In this document: positions 48,024 to 54,325 of the stretch, one piece after another
How the letters are laid out: every line of letters starts with the position of its first letter
How positions within the stretch are numbered: the first letter of the stretch is position 1
Notes under the pieces: model-generated
Told to the model about the DNA's origin: nothing
The model's input: only the letters and a program-made list of their open reading frames with translations
Database searches by the model: none
Assembly (NCBI GenBank): GCA_041690595.1
Contig: JAWLHB010000034.1
Coordinates: 1-64,000 of the forward strand
Reading direction: 5' to 3'
Length of the DNA: 64,000 bases
From: Lentisphaeria bacterium
GTDB lineage: Bacteria > Verrucomicrobiota > Lentisphaeria > JABSQK01 > JAWLHB01
Made by a program: the position numbers and the translations under genes

Positions 48024-48746
48024 TCAGGTTCCGGGGCGATTGCCGTAGATTTCAATGTGGGCACGGGGGGTATACCGCCAGCCGCGCCGCAGGCAGATGG
48101 CGATGCACAGTTTCCCGTGTTCGGCCAGTTGCGCGGCATCGATTCCCTGCGGCATCAGGTAGATACGCTGCGGTGGGACCTCGGGTTTGAGCGTCGCGAG
48201 CAGCTGATCGATCTCCGCTTCGTCTTCAGCTTCATTGATGACGAATTTGAACTGGTAGTCGTAGTTCTCCACCCAGTAGGTCAGCGCTTCCGGCACAATG
48301 CGCAGCTTCTCGTGGCTGGCTGCCAGGCGTGGGTCATCCGGGACGGAACTTGCCAGCTTCGGGGAGATCGAGATGAAGTCAGCCTCAAGGGGATTCGCCA
48401 TGGTCCCGTTGGTTTCGATAGTCTGGTAGTAGCCTTCTTCATGCAGGCGCCGCACCAGCTCATGAAGGTGGGGCTGCAACATTGGCTCTCCACCGGTAAT
48501 GACCACATGCCGCACGGCCGGATGCTTGTCGGCCAGGGCGACAACCCGCGCACAGACATCTTCGACCGTCATCAGGCTACCGCGTGCCTCCCAGGAGGTG
48601 TACGGCGTATCGCAGCGCGTACCGTTCCATTGGCAACGAAGATTGCAGCCCGAGGTGCGGACGAAGATGCTGGGGGTACCCAGGTAGCGACCTTCGCCCT
48701 GGATCGAGGCAAAGATCTCGCTGAGATTGAGCTTGAGGGGAGTCAT
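48024..48746 (-). CDS. queE: 7-carboxy-7-deazaguanine synthase (radical SAM)
   Basis: EIFASIQGEG, CNLRC...CDT, TGGEP, ETNG, SPK, KFV and PRAH. Confidence 0.9.
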   Translation of the reverse strand: MTPLKLNLSEIFASIQGEGRYLGTPSIFVRTSGCNLRCQWNGTRCDTPYTSWEARGSLMTVEDVCARVVALADKHPAVRHVVITGGEPMLQPHLHELVRRLHEEGYYQTIETNGTMANPLEADFISISPKLASSVPDDPRLAASHEKLRIVPEALTYWVENYDYQFKFVINEAEDEAEIDQLLATLKPEVPPQRIYLMPQGIDAAQLAEHGKLCIAICLRRGWRYTPRAHIEIYGNRPGT

Positions 48747-48984
48747 GAAGCAAGTGCCGCGGGTGAGGGGTACGTGAAAATAGCTGGGAAAAGCTGCCCG
48801 ACATTTCCCAAATGTCAATGGTGCCAGAGCGTCATGCGCCGCTTCCTTCTTCCCGTCAACGGAAATGCAGCCATTTCGCGGCGTGAGTGGAAGGTGAATC
48901 TGGCGCAACAAAAGTTGACGTCGGGCCGGGCCGTTCAGTTCAAAGTATGCTTTCGTTGGCGTCGTTCCGCGAGGGTGTTGCGTC

Positions 48985-49031
48985 AAAAAAAGTTTACGAC
49001 ACCATTGTAATTGATGTAAAAGTCATATAAT
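48985..49031 (+). promoter_or_regulatory. Candidate promoter for the sigma gene: A-tract plus perfect -10
   Basis: AAAAAAAGTTT (48985-48995), TTGTAA (49005-49010, 15-bp spacer), TATAAT (49026-49031); a second TATAAT lies at 49087-49092. Confidence 0.45.
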
Positions 49032-49257
49032 GTTGCTCGTCATACGGGCACTATAGGACGATGCGAAGTACCCACGATTTATTCCCTATAATCCGACTCA
49101 TGCTGCTGTCCCCGCCGTGGGCAGAGGAGGACCTTTACTACCGCATCCAATCTAAGAGCCGCGCTTCACACTTGCGTGATTTCCTTATTCGCGATATTCA
49201 CGAAGGCCTCTCCGATTCTGGAATTGGAGAGGCAAAAAGGAGGCCCTGTACAGCGTA

Positions 49258-50457
49258 ATGTACACGAAGAACGATCCCATGAAGGCTTATATGCAGGATA
49301 TAGGCGAAATCCCTCTTATCTCCAAACAGGAAGAGGTCGAACTTGCGGCTCGTATCAAGAGAGGGGATCAGTCAGCGCGTGAAAAGCTGATCAAGGCCAA
49401 CCTCCGCCTGGTGGTGAAGATTGCGCATGATTTCAAAGGTTTCGGGCTGCCGCTGCTCGATCTGATCTCTGAAGGGAATATCGGCCTGATGCGGGCGGCA
49501 GAGAAATTCGACCCTGCCAAGGGGGCAAAGTTCAGCAGCTACTCGGCTTGGTGGATCAAGCAGTCGATGCGCCGCGCGCTCTCGCAGAAGAGCCGTACCA
49601 TACGCGTGCCGGTAGCCTCCGCCGGTAAGATCAACAAGATCAAGACGGCGAAGATGCAATTGACAGAGAAGTTCGGCCGCTCCCCCACTGACGGGGAGAT
49701 TGCCGAACACCTCGACCTGACCAAGCGCACGGTTCAGGGGCTGAAGCTCGCGGATTTCAAAACATTTTCGCTTCACGATCCCATTCAGAAGGGCGAAGAA
49801 GGTAGCTTCGAAGACATCATTCCGGATACGAATGCCTGTACCCCGGACATGATCATCGAGGGCAGCGAGAGCATCAACCGCCTCCGCGGCCTGATCAACA
49901 ATCTGGATGAGCGCGAGCAGACCATCCTGGTCATGCGCTATGGCTTGGACGGTAACCGACCCAAAACCCTCGAAGAAGTGAGCAAGACTATCGGCCGCAC
50001 GCGGGAACGTGTCCGCCAGATCCAGATGCAGTCGCTGAAGAAGCTGCGCATGCTGATCGAGGACAACAATCTGGACAATGAGGGCAATCCCGTAGCCAGC
50101 CTTCTTGGACGTCGGCACCGCGGGCGCGATGGCGAGGAAGGCGAATTGGCGGCCACCTTTGCCATTCTCACTCATGCAGCCGGTGATGCGATGGGAGCGG
50201 CCAGCGGCTATGCGGACTCTCGCATGTCTCCCCTTTCCATTGAAGATCTGGCCGACTGTGAGGTTGGCCTGGCAGCACTCAGCATGTCGACCCGCAGCCT
50301 GAACAGCTTGCGCAGTGCCGGGATCAATACGGTGGGCGAGCTGGTCTGCAAGAAGCCGCAGGAGCTGCTGTCGATTCGTTACTTCGGAGAGAAGTGCATG
50401 ATCGAGGTGTTGGAGTCGCTCGCCAAATATCATGAGAGCACCTTTCAGCATCGGTGA
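49258..50457 (+). CDS. RpoD/SigA-family sigma-70 factor (regions 1.2-4) fused to a C-terminal RNA polymerase alpha-CTD domain
   Basis: YMQDIGEIPL (1.2), NLRLVV, DLISEGNIGL, KFSSYSAWWIKQ (2), TLEEVS...TRERVRQI (4.2); C-terminal LSMSTRSLNSLRSAGINTVGELVCKKPQELLSIRYFGEKCMIEV. Confidence 0.9.
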   Translation: MYTKNDPMKAYMQDIGEIPLISKQEEVELAARIKRGDQSAREKLIKANLRLVVKIAHDFKGFGLPLLDLISEGNIGLMRAAEKFDPAKGAKFSSYSAWWIKQSMRRALSQKSRTIRVPVASAGKINKIKTAKMQLTEKFGRSPTDGEIAEHLDLTKRTVQGLKLADFKTFSLHDPIQKGEEGSFEDIIPDTNACTPDMIIEGSESINRLRGLINNLDEREQTILVMRYGLDGNRPKTLEEVSKTIGRTRERVRQIQMQSLKKLRMLIEDNNLDNEGNPVASLLGRRHRGRDGEEGELAATFAILTHAAGDAMGAASGYADSRMSPLSIEDLADCEVGLAALSMSTRSLNSLRSAGINTVGELVCKKPQELLSIRYFGEKCMIEVLESLAKYHESTFQHR

Positions 50458-50484
50458 GGAGTACCGAACGAGCTGCCATGCCTG

Positions 50485-50510
50485 AACACGGCTGATGCAG
50501 TCGTGTTTTT
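50485..50510 (+). terminator. Intrinsic terminator after the sigma gene
   Basis: AACACGGCTG-ATG-CAGTCGTGTT followed by TTT. Confidence 0.7.
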
Positions 50511-50596
50511 ATGGCGTTAGGGTTTGTCTCTCGGGTAGTTGACCCTTACATTGCTCACATGCATTTTCCGGCTAAACTAGAAAAGGGGAAGACTAT

Positions 50597-51364
50597 ATGA
50601 CTCGGAGCCTGGTCAAGCACAAGCTTGTCATGGCAGGTATGGCGATCACGGTTTTTTCCGCGATCGCTCAGGACGAGAGTGCGCCAATCCTGACCAACCA
50701 GCTGTTGGACGCAGGTGGGATCATACTCAAGATCCTCATTGCGCTCTCGATACTCGCTGTCTGCATGACCGTCTACTTTCTGCTCACGATTCGTCGTGGC
50801 GTCCTGATGCCGGAGTCCTTCCAACGGGAGGCGGAGGATATTGCCGGCCGGGGCGATGTGGAGGCGCTCCATACGATCTGCAATGAAAGCACCGCTGCGG
50901 GTGCCAGGATCATCGGTGCGGCGGCACGCATTCTTCATGAGAATCCACATGTGGACTACATGGCCGTGCGTGACGTTGTCGAGGGCGAAGGTTCACGCCA
51001 GTCCGGCACGCTCTGGCAGCGCATCCAGTATCTGCAGGACATCGCCATCGTTTCGCCGATGCTGGGGCTGCTGGGAACCGTGGTGGGTATGCTTCGGGCG
51101 TTTCTGGACATGCAGAAGGCAACGGGCATTGGTGGTATTCGCCCGGTAGAGCTGGCAAGTGGCGTGTCGCAGGCTCTGGTGACGACCGCGGGCGGCCTCA
51201 TTGTCGGCATCATGGCCATGATCGTCTACGCCTTCTTCCGCGGGCGTGTCAATCGCGTGGTTACGCAGTTGGAAGAGAACTGCAGTTTCATTCTGCAGCG
51301 TTTCATGTTCAAGTCGCGCGGTGAACGGCTTCCTGAGGGACGCCCTCTGAACCCGAGCCGTTGA
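50597..51364 (+). CDS. MotA/TolQ/ExbB proton channel protein
   Basis: SPMLGLLGTVVGM and ALVTTAGGL. Confidence 0.92.
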   Translation: MTRSLVKHKLVMAGMAITVFSAIAQDESAPILTNQLLDAGGIILKILIALSILAVCMTVYFLLTIRRGVLMPESFQREAEDIAGRGDVEALHTICNESTAAGARIIGAAARILHENPHVDYMAVRDVVEGEGSRQSGTLWQRIQYLQDIAIVSPMLGLLGTVVGMLRAFLDMQKATGIGGIRPVELASGVSQALVTTAGGLIVGIMAMIVYAFFRGRVNRVVTQLEENCSFILQRFMFKSRGERLPEGRPLNPSR

Positions 51365-51377
51365 GGTAGACTGAACC

Positions 51378-51818
51378 ATGAATTTCCGCAAGGCACTCGA
51401 AGGTCAGAACGCCGGCTTCCAGATGGCGCCGATGATCGACATCATGTTTCTGTTGCTCGTCTTTTTCATGGTTGCCTCCATTGAAGCGCAGTTGGAAACG
51501 AAGCTGCCGATTACCGTACCCACCGCGGAGACCGGTGAGGACACGCCGCGGATGCCGTCGGAATTGATCATCAACATCGATCAGGAAGGGCGCATCTTCC
51601 TGAACAACTCCATACAAACGCCGGAACAACTCCAGCAGGTGTTGCAGCGGCTCTCCAGCATGCTGCAGGGAAGCCCCGTCATCATTCGAGCCGATGCGAA
51701 GACGGATTACGAGGATGTGATCGAGGTGCTTGATATCTGCCGCCGAGTGGATATCTGGAACGTGCGCTTTGCCACTATTCCGCCTGAAGCGGCCGAAGAA
51801 CCGCCCGCTCCCCGCTGA
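51378..51818 (+). CDS. ExbD/TolR family protein
   Basis: PMIDIMFLLLVFFMV and IRAD. Confidence 0.92.
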   Translation: MNFRKALEGQNAGFQMAPMIDIMFLLLVFFMVASIEAQLETKLPITVPTAETGEDTPRMPSELIINIDQEGRIFLNNSIQTPEQLQQVLQRLSSMLQGSPVIIRADAKTDYEDVIEVLDICRRVDIWNVRFATIPPEAAEEPPAPR

Positions 51819-51859
51819 GCCAAACACCTCGATTGTCGATCTGGTGGACTAGCTGATAC

Positions 51860-54325
51860 ATGAAGATAGAGCGGAAAACACGAATGTGCGTGCTCGGGTT
51901 CGTCATGCTGGTGACGGCTTTGATGGGCTATGCTCAGGAAGCGGCTCCCGGCGCCACGCCCGCCCCTGCCGCCACTCCCGTCCCCGGCGCGGCAGACGAG
52001 GGCGCGCTGACTCCGGCTGAACGGCAGGCGCGTCTGGCGGACGGCCTTTTCCGGCGTCGGCAGTATCGCATGGCAGCCTCTGAGTACGAAGTGCTGACCC
52101 AGCGGTTCCCAGAGTACGAGCGTACTCCAGAAGCGTATCTCCTGTGGGCGCAGTCCTACCGTCGACTCGATCAGGACGATAAGGCATTGGATATTTATCT
52201 GCAGTTGCTCAGCAGGCATCCACAGCATCAGGCTGCCGATCAGGCGCTGGTGAATGCCGCCGAGATTCTGCTGCGCCAGGAGGCGTTTGCACGTGCCAGG
52301 GAGTTGCTGGAGAAGGCCAGCCTGGAGGGGAAGAGCCCGGGCACCCAGGAGGCCATACATTTTTATCTGGGGCAGGTCTACAACCAACTGGGTGAAACCG
52401 AGAAGGCGCTGGCGCAATTCGCCGCGCTCAAACGCGATGACTTTTCCGCGGAGTTCCCCTACCGACCCTACGCTCAGATGTCGAGCGCGCTCATTCACCG
52501 TGCTCGTCGTGAGGTACCTCAGGCTACAGCCTTGCTCAAGGGCTTGGCCGCGGCGGCCAACGCACCGGCCGATCTGCGGCAGGAAGCGCTCTACTACCTG
52601 GGTGAGCTGAACTTCAGCAACGATGAATTCAAGGCTGCCGTCGATTACTACCGGGAGCTGTTGGGCAGCTACCCCGCCAGTGCCTATGCGTCGAGAGCCA
52701 GGATAAATCTTGGCTGGTCGCTGCTGCAGTTGGAGGAATATCGCGAGATCATTCGGCTTTTCGAAGCGGAGGGTGCGAGCGCGGCGTCTGCTACAGGTGA
52801 AGAGCTTTACCTGCTGGCGTCCGCCTCGAAGGAACTCAATCAGTATGAGGCGGCTCTGGAGACGCTTCGGCAGCTGGTGCGCGACTATCCGGGGAGCGAA
52901 TTCAGCGCTCACGCGTCGGCGGGGATGGTGGAATGCCTCTACCACCTGAAGCGTTACCAGGAATGTGTGGAGGAAGCCGAGAAGCTGCTGGCGGGAGAAT
53001 CGGAGCACCGTCGCGGGCGGGAGATCATGCAGTTTCTCGGGTTGAGCTATCAGGCGCTCGAGCAGTGGGCGAAAGTTGCCGAAGTCTACGAGGAGCTACT
53101 GCAGCGTCATTGGGAAGAGCTGACGGAACGGGAAGACCTTCTGCACATTCTGGCCAATGCCTATGAACGGACGGGCGATCCGGCCAAAGCGGCGGTGACG
53201 TACCGCCGCATTCTCGACTTGAAAGAGGCTGGACAGCCGGTGGAAGCGCTGCTGCTGGCAGCGGAAAACGAGATGAAGGCGAAGCAGTACGAGGAAGCGT
53301 TCAACGACTATCAGCGGATCGTGGCGGGCTATCCAGAGCACCAGCAGGTGCCGCTGGCTCTGATCGGCATGGCCGAGGTGAAGATGCGGATGGGAAGCCA
53401 TGCGGAGGCGGTGGAGGTTCTCAACCGCCTGCTGACGGAGTATCCGGATCACCCCTTTCGCAGCAACGCCCTTTACCTGCGCGGCTCGCTTTACTTTCAG
53501 TTGAACCGTACGAAGGAAGCGATCGCTGATCTGGCGCGGAGCCTTCAGGAGCCCAATTTCGCGGAGCGCGATTACGCGCGTCTGGTACTGGGGTACGCGC
53601 TCTGGGAGGAAGGCAAGGAGGATGAAGCCCTGCAGCTTTTCGCCGAGATGCTGGAGCAGGCCGCCATGGCGGAGAATTTTACTCCGGTCATGTTGCGCGA
53701 GATCGGTCGTAAGTACTTGGAGAAGAACAACATCAAGGCCGCCGAGCAGGCTTTTCAGTTACTGGCGCGCCATCCCGAGCCGGAGCACCAGATGGCCGGC
53801 CTGATCGGCCAGGGCAAGACGGCGTTCCAGAAAGGTGATTTCGAGAAAGCCAACGAGCTTTTCCAGAGAGTGAAGAAGCAGGCCGGCTTCAAGTCGACGG
53901 AACACGTGATCGCGCTGGCCTATCTTGGCGAGACGTATCGGCAACTGGGCATGCTTAATCGCGCCGAAATCGAGTTTCAGGAAGGGCTCAAGCTGGGGAC
54001 CACGGATGTCAACGCCAATGCCTTGCTTTACACCGGGCTGGCAAAGCTGAACTATGCGCATGGCAACCTGAATGACGCTCTGCGCTATGCCACCTTCGCC
54101 TTCGTCGTCTTCAATGATCCTCAGCATACGCCCGAGGCGATGCTGCTGGCGACCCGGATCTCCGCCGATCAGGATGATGTCCAGGAGGCGCTGCTCACCT
54201 ACCGTGAATTGGCGGAGCGCTTCCCGATAGCGCTGGGGAAGTTCAAGCAGGATGATGCCAACAAGGCCCTGTTCGAGAAGCTGGAGGCAGCGGACAGGAA
54301 CTTGCGGCAGGAGAAGAAACCTTAA
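51860..54325 (+). CDS. Secreted tetratricopeptide-repeat protein (BamD/CpoB-like repeats)
   Basis: Signal peptide; many TPR units with YP/HP/FP turns. Confidence 0.85.
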   Translation: MKIERKTRMCVLGFVMLVTALMGYAQEAAPGATPAPAATPVPGAADEGALTPAERQARLADGLFRRRQYRMAASEYEVLTQRFPEYERTPEAYLLWAQSYRRLDQDDKALDIYLQLLSRHPQHQAADQALVNAAEILLRQEAFARARELLEKASLEGKSPGTQEAIHFYLGQVYNQLGETEKALAQFAALKRDDFSAEFPYRPYAQMSSALIHRARREVPQATALLKGLAAAANAPADLRQEALYYLGELNFSNDEFKAAVDYYRELLGSYPASAYASRARINLGWSLLQLEEYREIIRLFEAEGASAASATGEELYLLASASKELNQYEAALETLRQLVRDYPGSEFSAHASAGMVECLYHLKRYQECVEEAEKLLAGESEHRRGREIMQFLGLSYQALEQWAKVAEVYEELLQRHWEELTEREDLLHILANAYERTGDPAKAAVTYRRILDLKEAGQPVEALLLAAENEMKAKQYEEAFNDYQRIVAGYPEHQQVPLALIGMAEVKMRMGSHAEAVEVLNRLLTEYPDHPFRSNALYLRGSLYFQLNRTKEAIADLARSLQEPNFAERDYARLVLGYALWEEGKEDEALQLFAEMLEQAAMAENFTPVMLREIGRKYLEKNNIKAAEQAFQLLARHPEPEHQMAGLIGQGKTAFQKGDFEKANELFQRVKKQAGFKSTEHVIALAYLGETYRQLGMLNRAEIEFQEGLKLGTTDVNANALLYTGLAKLNYAHGNLNDALRYATFAFVVFNDPQHTPEAMLLATRISADQDDVQEALLTYRELAERFPIALGKFKQDDANKALFEKLEAADRNLRQEKKP

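What the first reader, a model, noticed from the sequence alone, without database searches (positions are those of the whole stretch)
49258..50457. Sigma-70 factor carrying its own RNA polymerase alpha-CTD
Seen: a complete RpoD/SigA-type sigma (regions 1.2-4.2, ending about 50064) continues in frame through a roughly 55-aa Gly/Ala-rich linker into LSMSTRSLNSLRSAGINTVGELVCKKPQELLSIRYFGEKCMIEVLESL (about 50278-50421), followed by one stop and a terminator. Established: this aligns by eye with alpha-CTD (E. coli [44 protein letters not shown]). Equivalents of the UP-element contacts R265, N268, G296 and K298 are retained, while N294 is Y and S299 is C. Alpha-CTD normally binds just upstream of -35, next to sigma region 4. 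Inference: the sigma brings a third, tethered alpha-CTD to the holoenzyme, either as a built-in UP-element reader or as an activator-docking/decoy module defining its own regulon. I know alpha-CTD-like domains on other proteins but not a characterised fusion to a full sigma.
Basis: partly seen in the sequence, partly recalled or inferred. Interest (0 to 1): 0.85.

Follow-up and report, generated by a model that had tools for sequence, protein, structure and literature searches.

The report
Sigma factor carrying an alpha-CTD
One whole order of Lentisphaeria bacteria has a promoter-recognition (sigma) factor fused to a copy of the DNA-binding tail domain that normally belongs to another RNA polymerase subunit, an arrangement found undescribed in the papers searched and likely to let this sigma read an extra stretch of promoter DNA.

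Summary
Window 49258-50457 (+) is one 399-aa ORF. Pfam finds Sigma70 r1.2, r2, r3 and r4, then RNA_pol_A_CTD at residues 332-389 (60.8 bits, cut-off 23.8).

It is not an assembly artefact. All 15 species genomes of the window's order carry it. It was not found in the 336 other genomes of the class, nor in a 401-genome phylum sample. Sixty protein clusters share the architecture. The fused sigmas form one clade, so the fusion arose once after a duplication.

The genome keeps a normal rpoA with its own CTD. A 454-aa sigma looks more RpoD-like, so the fused one is probably a group-2-like alternative sigma.

The linker (44-89 aa) is hypervariable and predicted to be disordered. The CTD folds confidently as an alpha-CTD. 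The equivalents of R265, N268 and G296 are invariant in 60 of 60, and K298 is kept in 59. The acidic 261 patch and the CAP-contact patch are not kept.

Best reading (about 0.55): a sigma-tethered minor-groove reader beside region 4. This is inferred, not shown. Seven literature searches found no description.

The parts
48974..49033 (+). Candidate promoter region: A7 tract at 48974-48980, TTGTAA at 49005-49010, TATAAT at 49026-49031. Unverified.
   Evidence: Read and my scoring script. The tool's consensus scan listed no + strand promoter here. The hexamer spacing is ambiguous: 15 nt to TATAAT, or 17 nt to the overlapping TAATGT. There are no TSS data.
49034..49257 (+). Putative long 5' leader (about 220 nt) with AGGAGG at 49238-49243
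   Evidence: Sequence. The best promoter candidates lie 84-268 nt upstream of the conserved N-terminal motif in all 14 fused genes examined. No Rfam match.
49258..50457 (+). Whole ORF of the sigma-alphaCTD fusion: 399 aa plus a TGA stop
   Evidence: The start codon is supported by the conserved N-terminus MYxKNDPMKAYM in 27 aligned homologues.
49273..49371 (+). Sigma-70 region 1.2 (aa 6-38). No region 1.1 precedes it.
   Evidence: Pfam PF00140, 49.1 bits.
49387..49599 (+). Sigma-70 region 2 (aa 44-114): core binding and -10 recognition
   Evidence: Pfam PF04542, 66.2 bits. Aligned to E. coli sigma70 375-451; Q437 is kept and T440 is R.
49627..49848 (+). Sigma-70 region 3 (aa 124-197)
   Evidence: Pfam PF04539, 64.6 bits.
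49894..50064 (+). Sigma-70 region 4 (Pfam aa 213-264; the helix continues to aa 269)
   Evidence: Pfam PF04545, 57.1 bits. The equivalents of R584, E585, R586, R588 and Q589 are kept. AlphaFold2 predicts a helix at 249-269.
50065..50244 (+). Disordered, hypervariable linker (aa 270-329)
   Evidence: pLDDT is below 50 for residues 280-320. No conserved columns across 27 homologues. Family linker length is 44-89 aa, median 63.
50251..50424 (+). RNA polymerase alpha C-terminal-domain-like module (aa 332-389). The folded domain runs to about aa 396.
   Evidence: Pfam PF03118, 60.8 bits. All 32 sequence hits in the PDB are RNAP alpha. The domain modelled alone has pLDDT 91. Foldseek top hits are alpha-CTD chains at rmsd 0.6-1.9 A.
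50471..50518 (+). Hairpin with a U-run downstream of the stop codon: a possible weak intrinsic terminator
   Evidence: Fold at -25.5 kcal/mol, z -2.58 against shuffles. Not called by the consensus terminator scan.

Best explanation
The gene encodes an alternative, group-2-like sigma-70 factor. It has regions 1.2-4.2 and lacks both region 1.1 and the non-conserved insertion. Its C-terminus, which lies just after region 4.2, is joined by a flexible tether of 44-89 residues to a DNA-binding alpha-CTD module.

In the holoenzyme, region 4.2 sits on the -35 element. The tethered CTD then inserts its R265-equivalent arginine into the minor groove of A/T-rich DNA just upstream, the place where one of RNA polymerase's own two alpha-CTDs normally binds UP elements.

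The sigma therefore reads a three-part promoter (-10, -35 and an upstream A/T tract) with one polypeptide. This gives it a promoter preference that its two CTD-less paralogues lack.

Shown here:
- the architecture
- its order-wide conservation and single origin
- the fold
- invariance of the DNA-contact residues
- disorder of the tether
- a normal rpoA in the same genome

Inferred, not shown:
- core binding
- DNA binding by the CTD
- its position next to region 4
- any effect on promoter choice
For: 1. The domain is a real alpha-CTD. Pfam gives 60.8 bits against a 23.8 cut-off. All 32 PDB sequence hits are RNAP alpha. The domain alone models at pLDDT 91 and pTM 0.79. It superposes on solved alpha-CTDs, including DNA-bound ones: 7vpd_S (TM 0.93 normalised to the target, rmsd 0.7 A), 1lb2_E, 3n97_B (alpha-CTD plus sigma region 4 on UP/-35 DNA) and 9zum_B (alpha-CTD on AT-rich DNA).

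2. The conserved surface is the DNA-binding one. In 60 family members (the window protein plus 59 cluster representatives), the R265, N268, G296 and E302 equivalents are invariant in 60 of 60. K298 is K in 59 and R in 1. The other invariant positions are hydrophobic-core residues (L260, L289, F295) and C at position 299.

3. The spacer behaves as a tether, not a domain. It is hypervariable in sequence and length and has pLDDT below 50.

4. There is strong, long-term selection. The fusion is present in 15 of 15 genomes of the order, spanning 5 families and 11 genera. The fused sigmas form one clade with 99/95 support, found in 100% of 200 bootstrap trees.

5. The paralogues cannot be told apart by their -35 and -10 reading residues. 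R584, E585, R586, R588, Q589 and Q437 are identical in the fused, C10-type and C28-type sigmas. The CTD is the obvious discriminator.

6. The geometry is favourable. This point is recalled, not tested here. In E. coli the proximal alpha-CTD binds next to sigma region 4 and touches R603, ten residues from the sigma C-terminus. Entry 3n97 is such a ternary complex by its title.

7. A lead only. The best sigma-70-like promoter candidate upstream of each of the 14 fused genes is preceded by DNA that is more A/T-rich than its surroundings (mean +0.131, 14 of 14 positive). In one family, A6-A8 tracts lie 13-14 nt upstream of TTGACA-N17-TATATT/TATGTT. The paralogues show less: +0.005 (5 of 10) and +0.038 (6 of 10).
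Against: - No experiment or DNA-containing model supports DNA binding. Conservation of R265 and N268 could partly reflect descent from alpha-CTD.
- N294 is never N (Y 33, F 21, A 4, S 2). C269 is never C. S299 is always C. The DNA-contact surface is therefore altered, and its specificity may differ from UP elements.
- The acidic 261 patch, which in E. coli contacts sigma region 4, is not kept. E261 becomes K in 28, N in 10 and R in 5 of 60. The sigma position aligned with R603 is acidic in all paralogues. The E. coli-type CTD-sigma4 contact cannot be assumed.
- The promoter A/T observation is post hoc. It uses unverified promoter calls and related genomes that are not independent. It does not show which sigma reads those promoters.
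- Which sigma is the housekeeping one is not settled. No sigma in the genome reaches an NCBIfam equivalog cut-off.
Confidence: 0.55

Rival explanations
1. The tethered CTD is mainly a protein-docking module. It offers transcription activators or other alpha-CTD-binding factors (CRP-like, Spx-like or NusA-like) a third landing pad that travels only with this sigma. Such factors would then act specifically on this sigma's holoenzyme. Alternatively, the CTD titrates them as a decoy.
For: Alpha-CTD is the classical target of class I activators and of Spx. Solved complexes appear among the structural neighbours: 1lb2 with CAP, and 1z3e and 3gfk with Spx. A long flexible tether suits recruitment.
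Against: - The residues that make the known protein contacts are not conserved. At the 287 patch, E286 becomes P in 30 of 60 and V287 is Q, D or R. The domain ends at about position 312-320 in most members, so the G315/R317/L318 part is missing.
- The 261 patch is variable.
- The invariant surface residues are the DNA-contact ones.
- No conserved neighbouring regulator gene was seen. The neighbours differ between G000, L020 and L021.
Confidence: 0.15
2. The C-terminal extension is a cis-acting regulatory domain, as in ECF sigma factors with fused C-terminal domains (ECF41, ECF42, ECF44). The CTD would fold back on sigma, for example on region 4 or region 2, and switch its activity on or off in response to a signal. 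The invariant cysteine at position 299 could act as a redox or metal sensor.
For: Sigma factors with regulatory C-terminal extensions are an established class. The titles and abstracts of PMC3426412, PMC7826278 and PMC7671368 were seen in the listing. This sigma lacks region 1.1, the usual autoinhibitory element. C299 is invariant in 60 of 60, and a second Cys is common at position 253 in 24 of 60.
Against: - AlphaFold2 gives no confident inter-domain packing (pTM 0.34; the linker has pLDDT below 50).
- A hypervariable tether of 44-89 aa is unlike the ECF extensions.
- The conserved surface residues are those of DNA binding, not a new interface.
Confidence: 0.12
3. The free sigma, without core, binds promoters. 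Region 4 plus the CTD would form a self-sufficient -35-plus-upstream DNA-binding unit that marks, occludes or bends promoters. The protein would then act partly as a repressor or placeholder rather than only as an initiation factor.
For: Region 1.1, which in primary sigmas masks DNA binding by the free protein (recalled), is absent. A large set of uncharacterised proteins combine a lone Sigma70_r4 with 2-7 alpha-CTD-like domains and have no r2 or r3, so they cannot be sigmas. Sixty-one of the 149 top profile hits match region 4. Pfam confirmed 13 of these. This suggests sigma4 plus alpha-CTD can work as an autonomous DNA-binding pair.
Against: Regions 1.2-3 of the fused sigma are almost invariant across the family. 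That points to selection on core binding and promoter melting, that is, on a working sigma. No data exist on DNA binding by the free protein.
Confidence: 0.1
4. The fusion is an artefact: a misassembly, a missed stop or frameshift in the linker, or a decaying pseudogene.
For: The genome is a 99-contig draft. No run holds more than 14% of the sampled words of this stretch.
Against: - The same uninterrupted architecture occurs in 13 of the 14 other genomes of the order. The 14th is unreadable because of withheld bases.
- It also occurs in 59 further protein clusters from several sources.
- Independent metagenome contigs cross the linker without indels.
- The CTD is under clear purifying selection.
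Confidence: 0.01

Closest known systems
RNA polymerase alpha subunit C-terminal domain (alpha-CTD) reading UP elements next to sigma region 4 (E. coli rrnB P1 paradigm; PDB 1lb2, 3n97, 3k4g)
   Same: Same fold (rmsd 0.6-1.9 A) and same Pfam family. R265, N268, G296, K298 and E302 are kept. In both cases a flexible linker joins the domain to the rest of the enzyme.
   Different: Here the domain hangs on sigma rather than on the alpha N-terminal domain, so it is present only when this sigma is bound. It is a third copy, because rpoA keeps its own CTD. N294 is Y or F, S299 is C and C269 is S or G. The 261 and 287 protein-contact patches are not conserved, and the C-terminal part is shorter.
Group 2 (RpoS-like, non-essential primary-like) sigma-70 factors
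   Same: Regions 1.2, 2, 3 and 4 are present, with canonical -35 and -10 reading residues. There is no long N-terminal region or non-conserved insertion. The best NCBIfam score is to the RpoS model.
   Different: It scores below every equivalog cut-off (RpoS 279.7 against 378.7; RpoD 258.3 against 572). It belongs to a Lentisphaeria-specific clade. It carries a C-terminal domain that, to my recollection, no characterised group 1-3 sigma has.
ECF sigma factors with fused C-terminal extensions (ECF41 SnoaL-like, ECF42 TPR, ECF44/CorE Cys-rich). PMC3426412, PMC7826278 and PMC7671368 were seen as titles and abstracts only.
   Same: A sigma-70-family protein extended beyond region 4 by an extra domain that modifies its activity.
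   Different: Those are group 4 sigmas with only regions 2 and 4. Their extensions are sensory or regulatory domains, not a piece of RNA polymerase and not a known DNA-binding module.
Laboratory chimeras that swap alpha-CTD and sigma region 4 (alpha-NTD-sigma4 fusions used in bacterial two-hybrid work).
   Same: They show that region 4 and alpha-CTD can function when tethered at each other's place on the enzyme.
   Different: They are man-made. The fusion is the reverse (sigma4 placed on alpha), and it replaces rather than adds a domain.
Uncharacterised proteins with tandem alpha-CTD-like domains plus a lone Sigma70_r4 domain (found here)
   Same: Region 4 and alpha-CTD co-occur in one polypeptide. 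In 545 repeat domains the R265 equivalent is R in 408 and the N268 equivalent is N in 368.
   Different: None of the 13 confirmed by Pfam has regions 2 or 3, so they are not sigma factors. They carry 2-7 CTD copies and other domains (integrase SAM-like, Sel1, HARE-HTH). Their source organisms are not known to me, and no function is known.

Membership tests
Sigma-70 family, groups 1-2 (RpoD/RpoS-like) | Regions 1.2, 2, 3 and 4 all present and in order | tested here: met
   Pfam PF00140, PF04542, PF04539 and PF04545 all score above their gathering cut-offs.
Sigma-70 family, groups 1-2 (RpoD/RpoS-like) | Canonical -35 reading residues (E. coli R584, E585, R586, R588, Q589) and -10 residue Q437 | tested here: met
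   Alignment with E. coli RpoD fetched from NC_000913.3. T440 is R in the whole clade.
Primary sigma RpoD (group 1) | Reaches the curated RpoD equivalog score; has an N-terminal region 1.1 and/or the non-conserved insertion | tested here: not met
   PRK09210 scores 258.3 against 572; PRK05658 scores 249.3 against 555; RpoD_Cterm scores 241.2 against 354. Region 1.2 starts at residue 6. A different 454-aa sigma in the genome is more RpoD-like (335.1 and 294.8 bits), though it too is below the cut-offs.
RpoS (proteobacterial stationary-phase sigma) | Reaches the curated RpoS equivalog score | tested here: not met
   TIGR02394 scores 279.7 against 378.7. It resembles RpoS in layout only.
RNA_pol_A_CTD (alpha-CTD fold) | Sequence match above Pfam's gathering score | tested here: met
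   60.8 bits against 23.8, covering profile positions 9-66 of 67. The whole-genome scan gives 58.5 bits.
RNA_pol_A_CTD (alpha-CTD fold) | Compact helical fold with two helix-hairpin-helix motifs that superposes on solved alpha-CTDs | tested here: met
   The AlphaFold2 model of the domain has pLDDT 91. Foldseek top hits are alpha-CTD chains with TM (normalised to the target) of 0.66-0.93 and rmsd 0.6-1.9 A. This is a predicted, not a solved, structure.
UP-element-binding alpha-CTD ('265 determinant') | R265, N268, C269, G296, K298, S299 (residue list recalled from the E. coli literature) | tested here: inconclusive
   R265, N268 and G296 are kept in 60 of 60. K298 is K in 59 of 60. C269 is S, G, A or R (never C). 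S299 is C in 60 of 60. N294 is Y, F, A or S. The core residues are met and the periphery is changed. DNA binding itself was not tested.
Alpha-CTD contact with sigma region 4 ('261 determinant') | Acidic D258/D259/E261 facing a basic residue at sigma70 R603 (recalled) | tested here: not met
   E261 becomes K (28), N (10), R (5) and others. D259 becomes A (24). The sigma position aligned to R603 is E or D in all paralogues. The charges are not those of E. coli, so a different or reversed contact is not excluded.
Alpha-CTD contact with CAP-type activators ('287 determinant') | T285, E286, V287, E288, L289, G315, R317, L318 (recalled) | tested here: not met
   E286 becomes P in 30 of 60. V287 becomes Q, D or R. 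Most members end before or around position 315-318.
Sigma factors with cis-regulatory C-terminal extensions (ECF41/42/44 type) | A group 4 sigma (regions 2 and 4 only) with a sensory extension that contacts the sigma core | tested here: not met
   This protein has regions 1.2 and 3. Its extension is an alpha-CTD. No confident intramolecular packing appears in the model (pTM 0.34).

The most novel reading that the evidence does not exclude
Region 4 of sigma plus alpha-CTD is a natural, reusable 'promoter-upstream reading unit'. In this Lentisphaeria order it has been built into a working sigma. The result is a holoenzyme with three alpha-CTDs, whose sigma alone recognises -10, -35 and an A/T tract and perhaps activates its own gene. 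The same pairing, without regions 2-3 and with up to 7 CTD copies, makes up a large and wholly uncharacterised class of proteins. These may bind promoters independently of RNA polymerase, as occluders, decoys or organisers.
Probability: 0.3. Interest if true: 0.85.

Novelty: new variant of a known kind. Interest (0 to 1): 0.72.

Why it matters
Promoter recognition in bacteria is textbook-divided between sigma (-10 and -35) and the alpha-CTDs (UP elements and activators). This protein is a natural, anciently fixed case in which evolution moved an alpha-CTD onto a sigma.

It offers several things:
- A natural experiment on alpha-CTD and region-4 cooperation.
- A way for paralogous sigmas with identical -35 and -10 reading residues to gain different regulons.
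- A ready-made design for synthetic sigmas with built-in UP dependence.

It also points to a much larger, unstudied population of proteins that combine region 4 with tandem alpha-CTD-like domains.

The sequences are already in public databases, but only under generic names such as 'sigma-70 family RNA polymerase sigma factor'.

Tried and rejected
- **Complex prediction** of sigma residues 1-275 against CTD residues 325-399, both as slices of alignment A1: no verdict (scores 0.16 and 0.14; the mark is 0.32). This is not evidence either way.
- **RNA evidence:** The look-up of sequencing runs listed 5 DNA runs from sediment metagenomes, with shares of 0.14 or less. No RNA holder was listed.
- **Rfam** on 48900-50650 found no match.
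- **ESM Atlas** returned only generic sigma clusters and had no structure search for this protein.
It returned only two full-length fused loci, L020 and L021.
- **Viral contigs** scanned with the CTD profile: 43 pattern matches, none confirmed.
- **Word-indexed search restricted to the CTD region** found only 5 proteins among 61 candidates.
- **CTD profile search among longer proteins** gave 40 proteins:
  - 30 full-length family members
  - 2 family fragments
  - 2 multi-CTD plus region-4 proteins
  - 6 RpoA
  - No second kind of full sigma-CTD fusion appeared. This is weak evidence only.
- **Gene neighbourhood** is not conserved. G000 has a radical-SAM gene upstream and ExbB/ExbD downstream. 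L020 and L021 have an LPG_synthase_TM gene upstream and unrelated genes downstream.
- **Consensus promoter and terminator scan** found nothing on the + strand.
- **Genus g130** gave 10 hits at E <= 1e-8 in the phylum sample. The two I inspected are ordinary rpoA (L100, L101). The other eight were not inspected.
- **G112**, the only non-order genome with two CTD matches, has two rpoA-sized frames of 345 and 356 aa.
- **Literature:**
  - Seven searches found no paper on a sigma-alphaCTD fusion.
  - Iyer & Aravind 2012 (PMC3769190) is the review most likely to mention such architectures. It is not held and I could not read it.
  - PMC7824862 was searched for CTD and alpha-subunit passages and has nothing relevant.
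- **The search of earlier findings** by sequence returned nothing.
- **Origin of the CTD:** I considered whether it derives from the genome's own rpoA. It is only 39% identical (about 30 bits), and the domain is too short to decide.
Full report
**1. What is in the sequence**

Window 49258-50457 (+) is a single ORF of 399 aa ending in TGA. Pfam finds five domains in order:
- Sigma70_r1_2 at residues 6-38
- Sigma70_r2 at 44-114
- Sigma70_r3 at 124-197
- Sigma70_r4 at 213-264
- RNA_pol_A_CTD at 332-389 (E 1.1e-16, 60.8 bits against a gathering score of 23.8)

A phmmer search of the last 119 residues against all PDB chains returned 32 distinct sequences, all RNA polymerase alpha subunits. The best was 5tw1_A (E 9.4e-8). 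E. coli 1lb2_B scored E 0.0087.

I fetched E. coli rpoA from NC_000913.3 and aligned it. The R265, N268, G296 and K298 equivalents are present, N294 is Y and S299 is C.

The spacer (residues 270-330) is 29.5% Gly+Ala, against 15.8% for the whole protein.

The stated terminator is weaker than implied. The consensus scan found none. A hairpin at about 50471-50518 does fold better than shuffled sequence (-25.5 against -17.85 +/- 2.96 kcal/mol).

**2. It is real and conserved**

The word-indexed protein search listed 120 hits. Sixty of these, the window protein and 59 cluster representatives at 55-80% identity and 375-427 aa, carry PF03118 together with the four sigma domains. Within the top 62, two short entries (P0051, P0058) lack the CTD. 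The remaining 58 are unfused sigmas that match only residues 1 to about 270.

The window's genome (G000; 8.1 Mb, 99 contigs, 97% complete) has exactly two PF03118 matches. One is a normal rpoA on contig 28 (87.5 bits). The other is this gene. The RpoA CTD has the canonical R265, N268, C269, G296, K298 and S299.

Taxonomic distribution of the fusion:

| Set searched | Result |
|---|---|
| Window's order (15 genomes, 5 families, 11 genera) | All 15 have a second, higher-scoring CTD match in a frame of 390-437 aa. G013 is the exception in frame length because it is broken by withheld bases. |
| The 14 other order genomes, read directly | 13 show one ORF with both sigma and CTD motifs (383-427 aa). 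|
| The other 336 genomes of the class | One (G112) has two matches, both in rpoA-sized frames. |
| 401-genome sample of the phylum, at E <= 1e-8 | Only order members and one genus, g130, match. The two g130 hits I inspected are ordinary rpoA. |

Named records place the family in Lentisphaeria. Records of Victivallis vadensis and Lentisphaera marina returned only unfused matches.

Short contigs from independent sediment metagenomes cross the linker without indels. One covers 50060-50321 and another 50161-50311.

**3. Where it came from**

Every genome of the order has several related sigmas:
- the fused one (72-89% identical to the window's sigma part)
- a form of about 295 aa, 'C10-type' (68-70%)
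- usually a form of about 285 aa, 'C28-type' (57-65%)
- a sigma of about 450 aa (35-42%)

The 454-aa sigma of G000 has a long insertion between regions 1.2 and 2, and a C-terminus like that of E. coli RpoD. It scores higher on RpoD models than the fused sigma does: PRK05658 gives 335 against 249 bits, and RpoD_Cterm gives 295 against 241 bits. It is therefore the more likely housekeeping sigma. No sigma in the genome reaches an equivalog cut-off, so this is a judgement.

I built a maximum-likelihood tree of 49 sigma cores. L113 and L116 were dropped by my motif filter, and L013 because of withheld bases.
- The 14 fused sigmas form one clade, with 99/95 support, found in 100% of 200 bootstrap trees.
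- This clade is sister to the C28-type (99/94).
- Both group with the C10-type in an order-specific clade (95/82).
- That clade's nearest relatives are the N-terminally extended sigmas of other Lentisphaeria (89/91).

The simplest history is two duplications and one fusion at the base of the order, followed by vertical descent.

**4. Anatomy and selection**

In an alignment of 27 full-length members, the sigma part is almost invariant. The linker has no conserved column. The CTD has the invariant positions L341, S344, R346, N349, L370, F376, G377, C380 and E383. Linker length ranges from 44 to 89 aa, with a median of 63.

AlphaFold2 on the whole protein gives pLDDT 92-97 for residues 331-390 and below 50 for 280-320, with pTM 0.34. 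The CTD alone gives pLDDT 91 and pTM 0.79.

Foldseek places the CTD model on solved alpha-CTDs. These include 7vpd_S (TM 0.93 normalised to the target, rmsd 0.7 A), 1lb2_E, 3k4g_A, 3n97_B (alpha-CTD with sigma region 4 on UP/-35 DNA) and 9zum_B (alpha-CTD on AT-rich DNA).

Conservation in E. coli numbering, over 60 members:

| Position | Residues in the fused family |
|---|---|
| R265, N268, G296, E302 | unchanged in 60 of 60 |
| K298 | K 59, R 1 |
| S299 | C in 60 of 60 |
| N294 | Y 33, F 21, A 4, S 2 |
| C269 | S 38, G 17, A 3, R 2 |
| E261 | K 28, N 10, R 5, G 4, Q 3, others |
| D258 | S 24, D 17, others |
| D259 | A 24, others |
| E286 | P 30, others |

Most members end near position 312-320.

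The assignment of these positions to the '265' (DNA), '261' (sigma region 4) and '287' (CAP) determinants is recalled from the E. coli literature. It was not checked here.

On that reading, the DNA-contact core is under absolute constraint. The two classical protein-contact patches are not.

**5. Why the CTD is probably the discriminator**

I aligned the G000 sigmas to E. coli sigma70, fetched and aligned.
- The fused, C10-type and C28-type sigmas have identical residues at the -35 reading positions (R584, E585, R586, R588, Q589).
- They are also identical at Q437, with R at position 440.
- They differ at position 592 (M or I in fused; N or K in the others) and beyond the end of region 4.
- The position aligned with R603 is acidic in all of them. 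That stretch is structurally uncertain.

**6. A lead on promoters**

Upstream of the 14 fused genes, the best sigma-70-like match is strong in several cases. Examples are TTGACA-N17-TATATT in L011 and L012 and TTGACA-N17-TATGTT in L014. In these, A6-A8 tracts lie 13-14 nt upstream of the -35 hexamer.

With equal 330-nt windows, I compared the 30 nt upstream of the -35 candidate with the whole window:

| Gene set | Mean A/T excess | Positive cases |
|---|---|---|
| Fused | +0.131 | 14 of 14 (one essentially zero) |
| C10-type | +0.005 | 5 of 10 |
| C28-type | +0.038 | 6 of 10 (one locus lacked my motif) |

This would fit autoregulation through an upstream A/T element. Several cautions apply. 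The promoters are unverified. The genomes are related and not independent. The test was devised after seeing the data. Nothing shows which sigma uses these sites. In the window itself the candidate is poor (A7 at 48974-48980, TTGTAA at 49005-49010, TATAAT at 49026-49031, with awkward spacing).

**7. Mechanism**

I commit to the tethered DNA-reader model, with confidence of about 0.55. The sigma binds core, and region 4.2 sits on -35. The CTD is held within a few tens of angstroms by a disordered tether that leaves the sigma C-terminus on the upstream side of -35. It then occupies the minor groove of A/T-rich DNA upstream.

This adds affinity and selectivity. It also leaves the enzyme's own two alpha-CTDs free or in competition.

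Rivals are given with their evidence in the Rival explanations section:
- activator dock or decoy (0.15)
- cis-regulatory extension of the ECF41/42 kind, perhaps using the invariant Cys (0.12)
- core-independent promoter binding by free sigma (0.10)
- artefact (0.01)

**8. Comparison with what is known, and novelty**

The parts are textbook. The combination is not.

Seven literature searches found no description of it. The one review most likely to list such architectures could not be read. NCBI and JGI name these proteins only 'sigma-70 family RNA polymerase sigma factor' or 'RNA polymerase primary sigma factor'.

The closest concepts are:
- the alpha-CTD/UP-element system
- group 2 sigmas
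- ECF sigmas with C-terminal extensions (titles and abstracts seen)
- laboratory alpha/sigma4 chimeras (recalled)

I class it as a new variant of a known kind.

**9. Seen on the way**

A profile of the fused CTDs hit 19,060 cluster representatives at E <= 1e-3. The top 149 are mostly proteins with 2-13 tandem alpha-CTD-like stretches.

Sixty-one of the 149 also match my sigma profile, almost always at region 4 only. Pfam confirmed Sigma70_r4 without r2 or r3 in 13 of the 21 I scanned. Those 13 had been chosen because they hit my profile.

One protein (P0136) looks like an RpoA fragment with three CTDs.

In 545 such repeat domains, the R265 equivalent is R in 408 and the N268 equivalent is N in 368.

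The recurrent pairing of region 4 with alpha-CTD in non-sigma proteins is unexplained and may be the larger story.

Noticed in passing
Not in the window: proteins P0122-P0270 (e.g. P0151, P0233, P0240, P0258, P0122), and P0279 and P0282: There is a very large uncharacterised population of proteins with 2-13 tandem alpha-CTD-like stretches: 19,060 cluster representatives at E <= 1e-3. Sixty-one of the top 149 also carry a lone sigma region-4-like HTH. Pfam confirmed Sigma70_r4 without r2 or r3 in 13 proteins. Some have further domains (integrase SAM-like, Sel1, HARE-HTH). In 545 repeat domains the R265 equivalent is R in 408.
   Followed up: partly
P0136 (326 aa): It has an RNA_pol_L (alpha dimerisation) fragment followed by three RNA_pol_A_CTD domains. 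This appears to be an alpha subunit with a triplicated CTD.
   Followed up: no
Upstream of fused sigma genes: L011, L012, L014 (A6-A8 tract, 13-14 nt, TTGACA-N17-TATATT/TATGTT) and window 48974-49033: The best promoter candidates of all 14 fused genes are preceded by locally A/T-rich DNA (mean +0.131, against +0.005 and +0.038 for the two paralogue groups). They are followed by long leaders of 84-268 nt. This may reflect UP-like elements, autoregulation and a regulatory 5' UTR. The promoter calls are unverified.
   Followed up: partly
G000 contigs C10:213085-213900 (-), C28:30202-31023 (+), C4:145113-145796 (-); loci L004-L006: The genome has three closely related short sigmas (the fused one, one of 295 aa and one of 284 aa) plus a 454-aa RpoD-like sigma with a 170-aa insertion between regions 1.2 and 2. 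The triplication is specific to the order. Other Lentisphaeria instead have one copy with a variable N-terminal extension (frames of 340-433 aa; up to 646 aa among the database hits).
   Followed up: partly
Fused CTD, window 50395-50397 (C380) and 50287-50289 (S344 region); family-wide: A cysteine replaces S299 in 60 of 60 members. A second Cys sits at the position of L253 in 24 of 60. Neither is present in RpoA. Their roles are unexplained.
   Followed up: no
Sigma region 4 C-terminus, window about 50050-50064 (aa 265-269, MLIED): The position aligned with E. coli sigma70 R603, the alpha-CTD contact, is acidic in all Lentisphaeria paralogues. Position 261 of the fused CTD is often basic (K in 28 and R in 5 of 60). 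This may be a reversed-charge contact. The alignment there is structurally uncertain.
   Followed up: no
L020:2706-3758 (-) and L021:2672-3694 (-): In two families of the order, a divergently transcribed LPG_synthase_TM-family membrane protein lies directly upstream of the fused sigma gene. In the window that place is taken by a radical-SAM protein (48024-48986, -).
   Followed up: partly
Window 50597-54325 (+): Directly downstream lie genes for MotA/ExbB-family and ExbD-family proteins and an 821-aa protein that looks TPR-rich by eye (this last ORF was not scanned). The set looks like a TonB/Tol-like energy-transduction cluster. It is not linked to the sigma gene in the other genomes checked.
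   Followed up: partly
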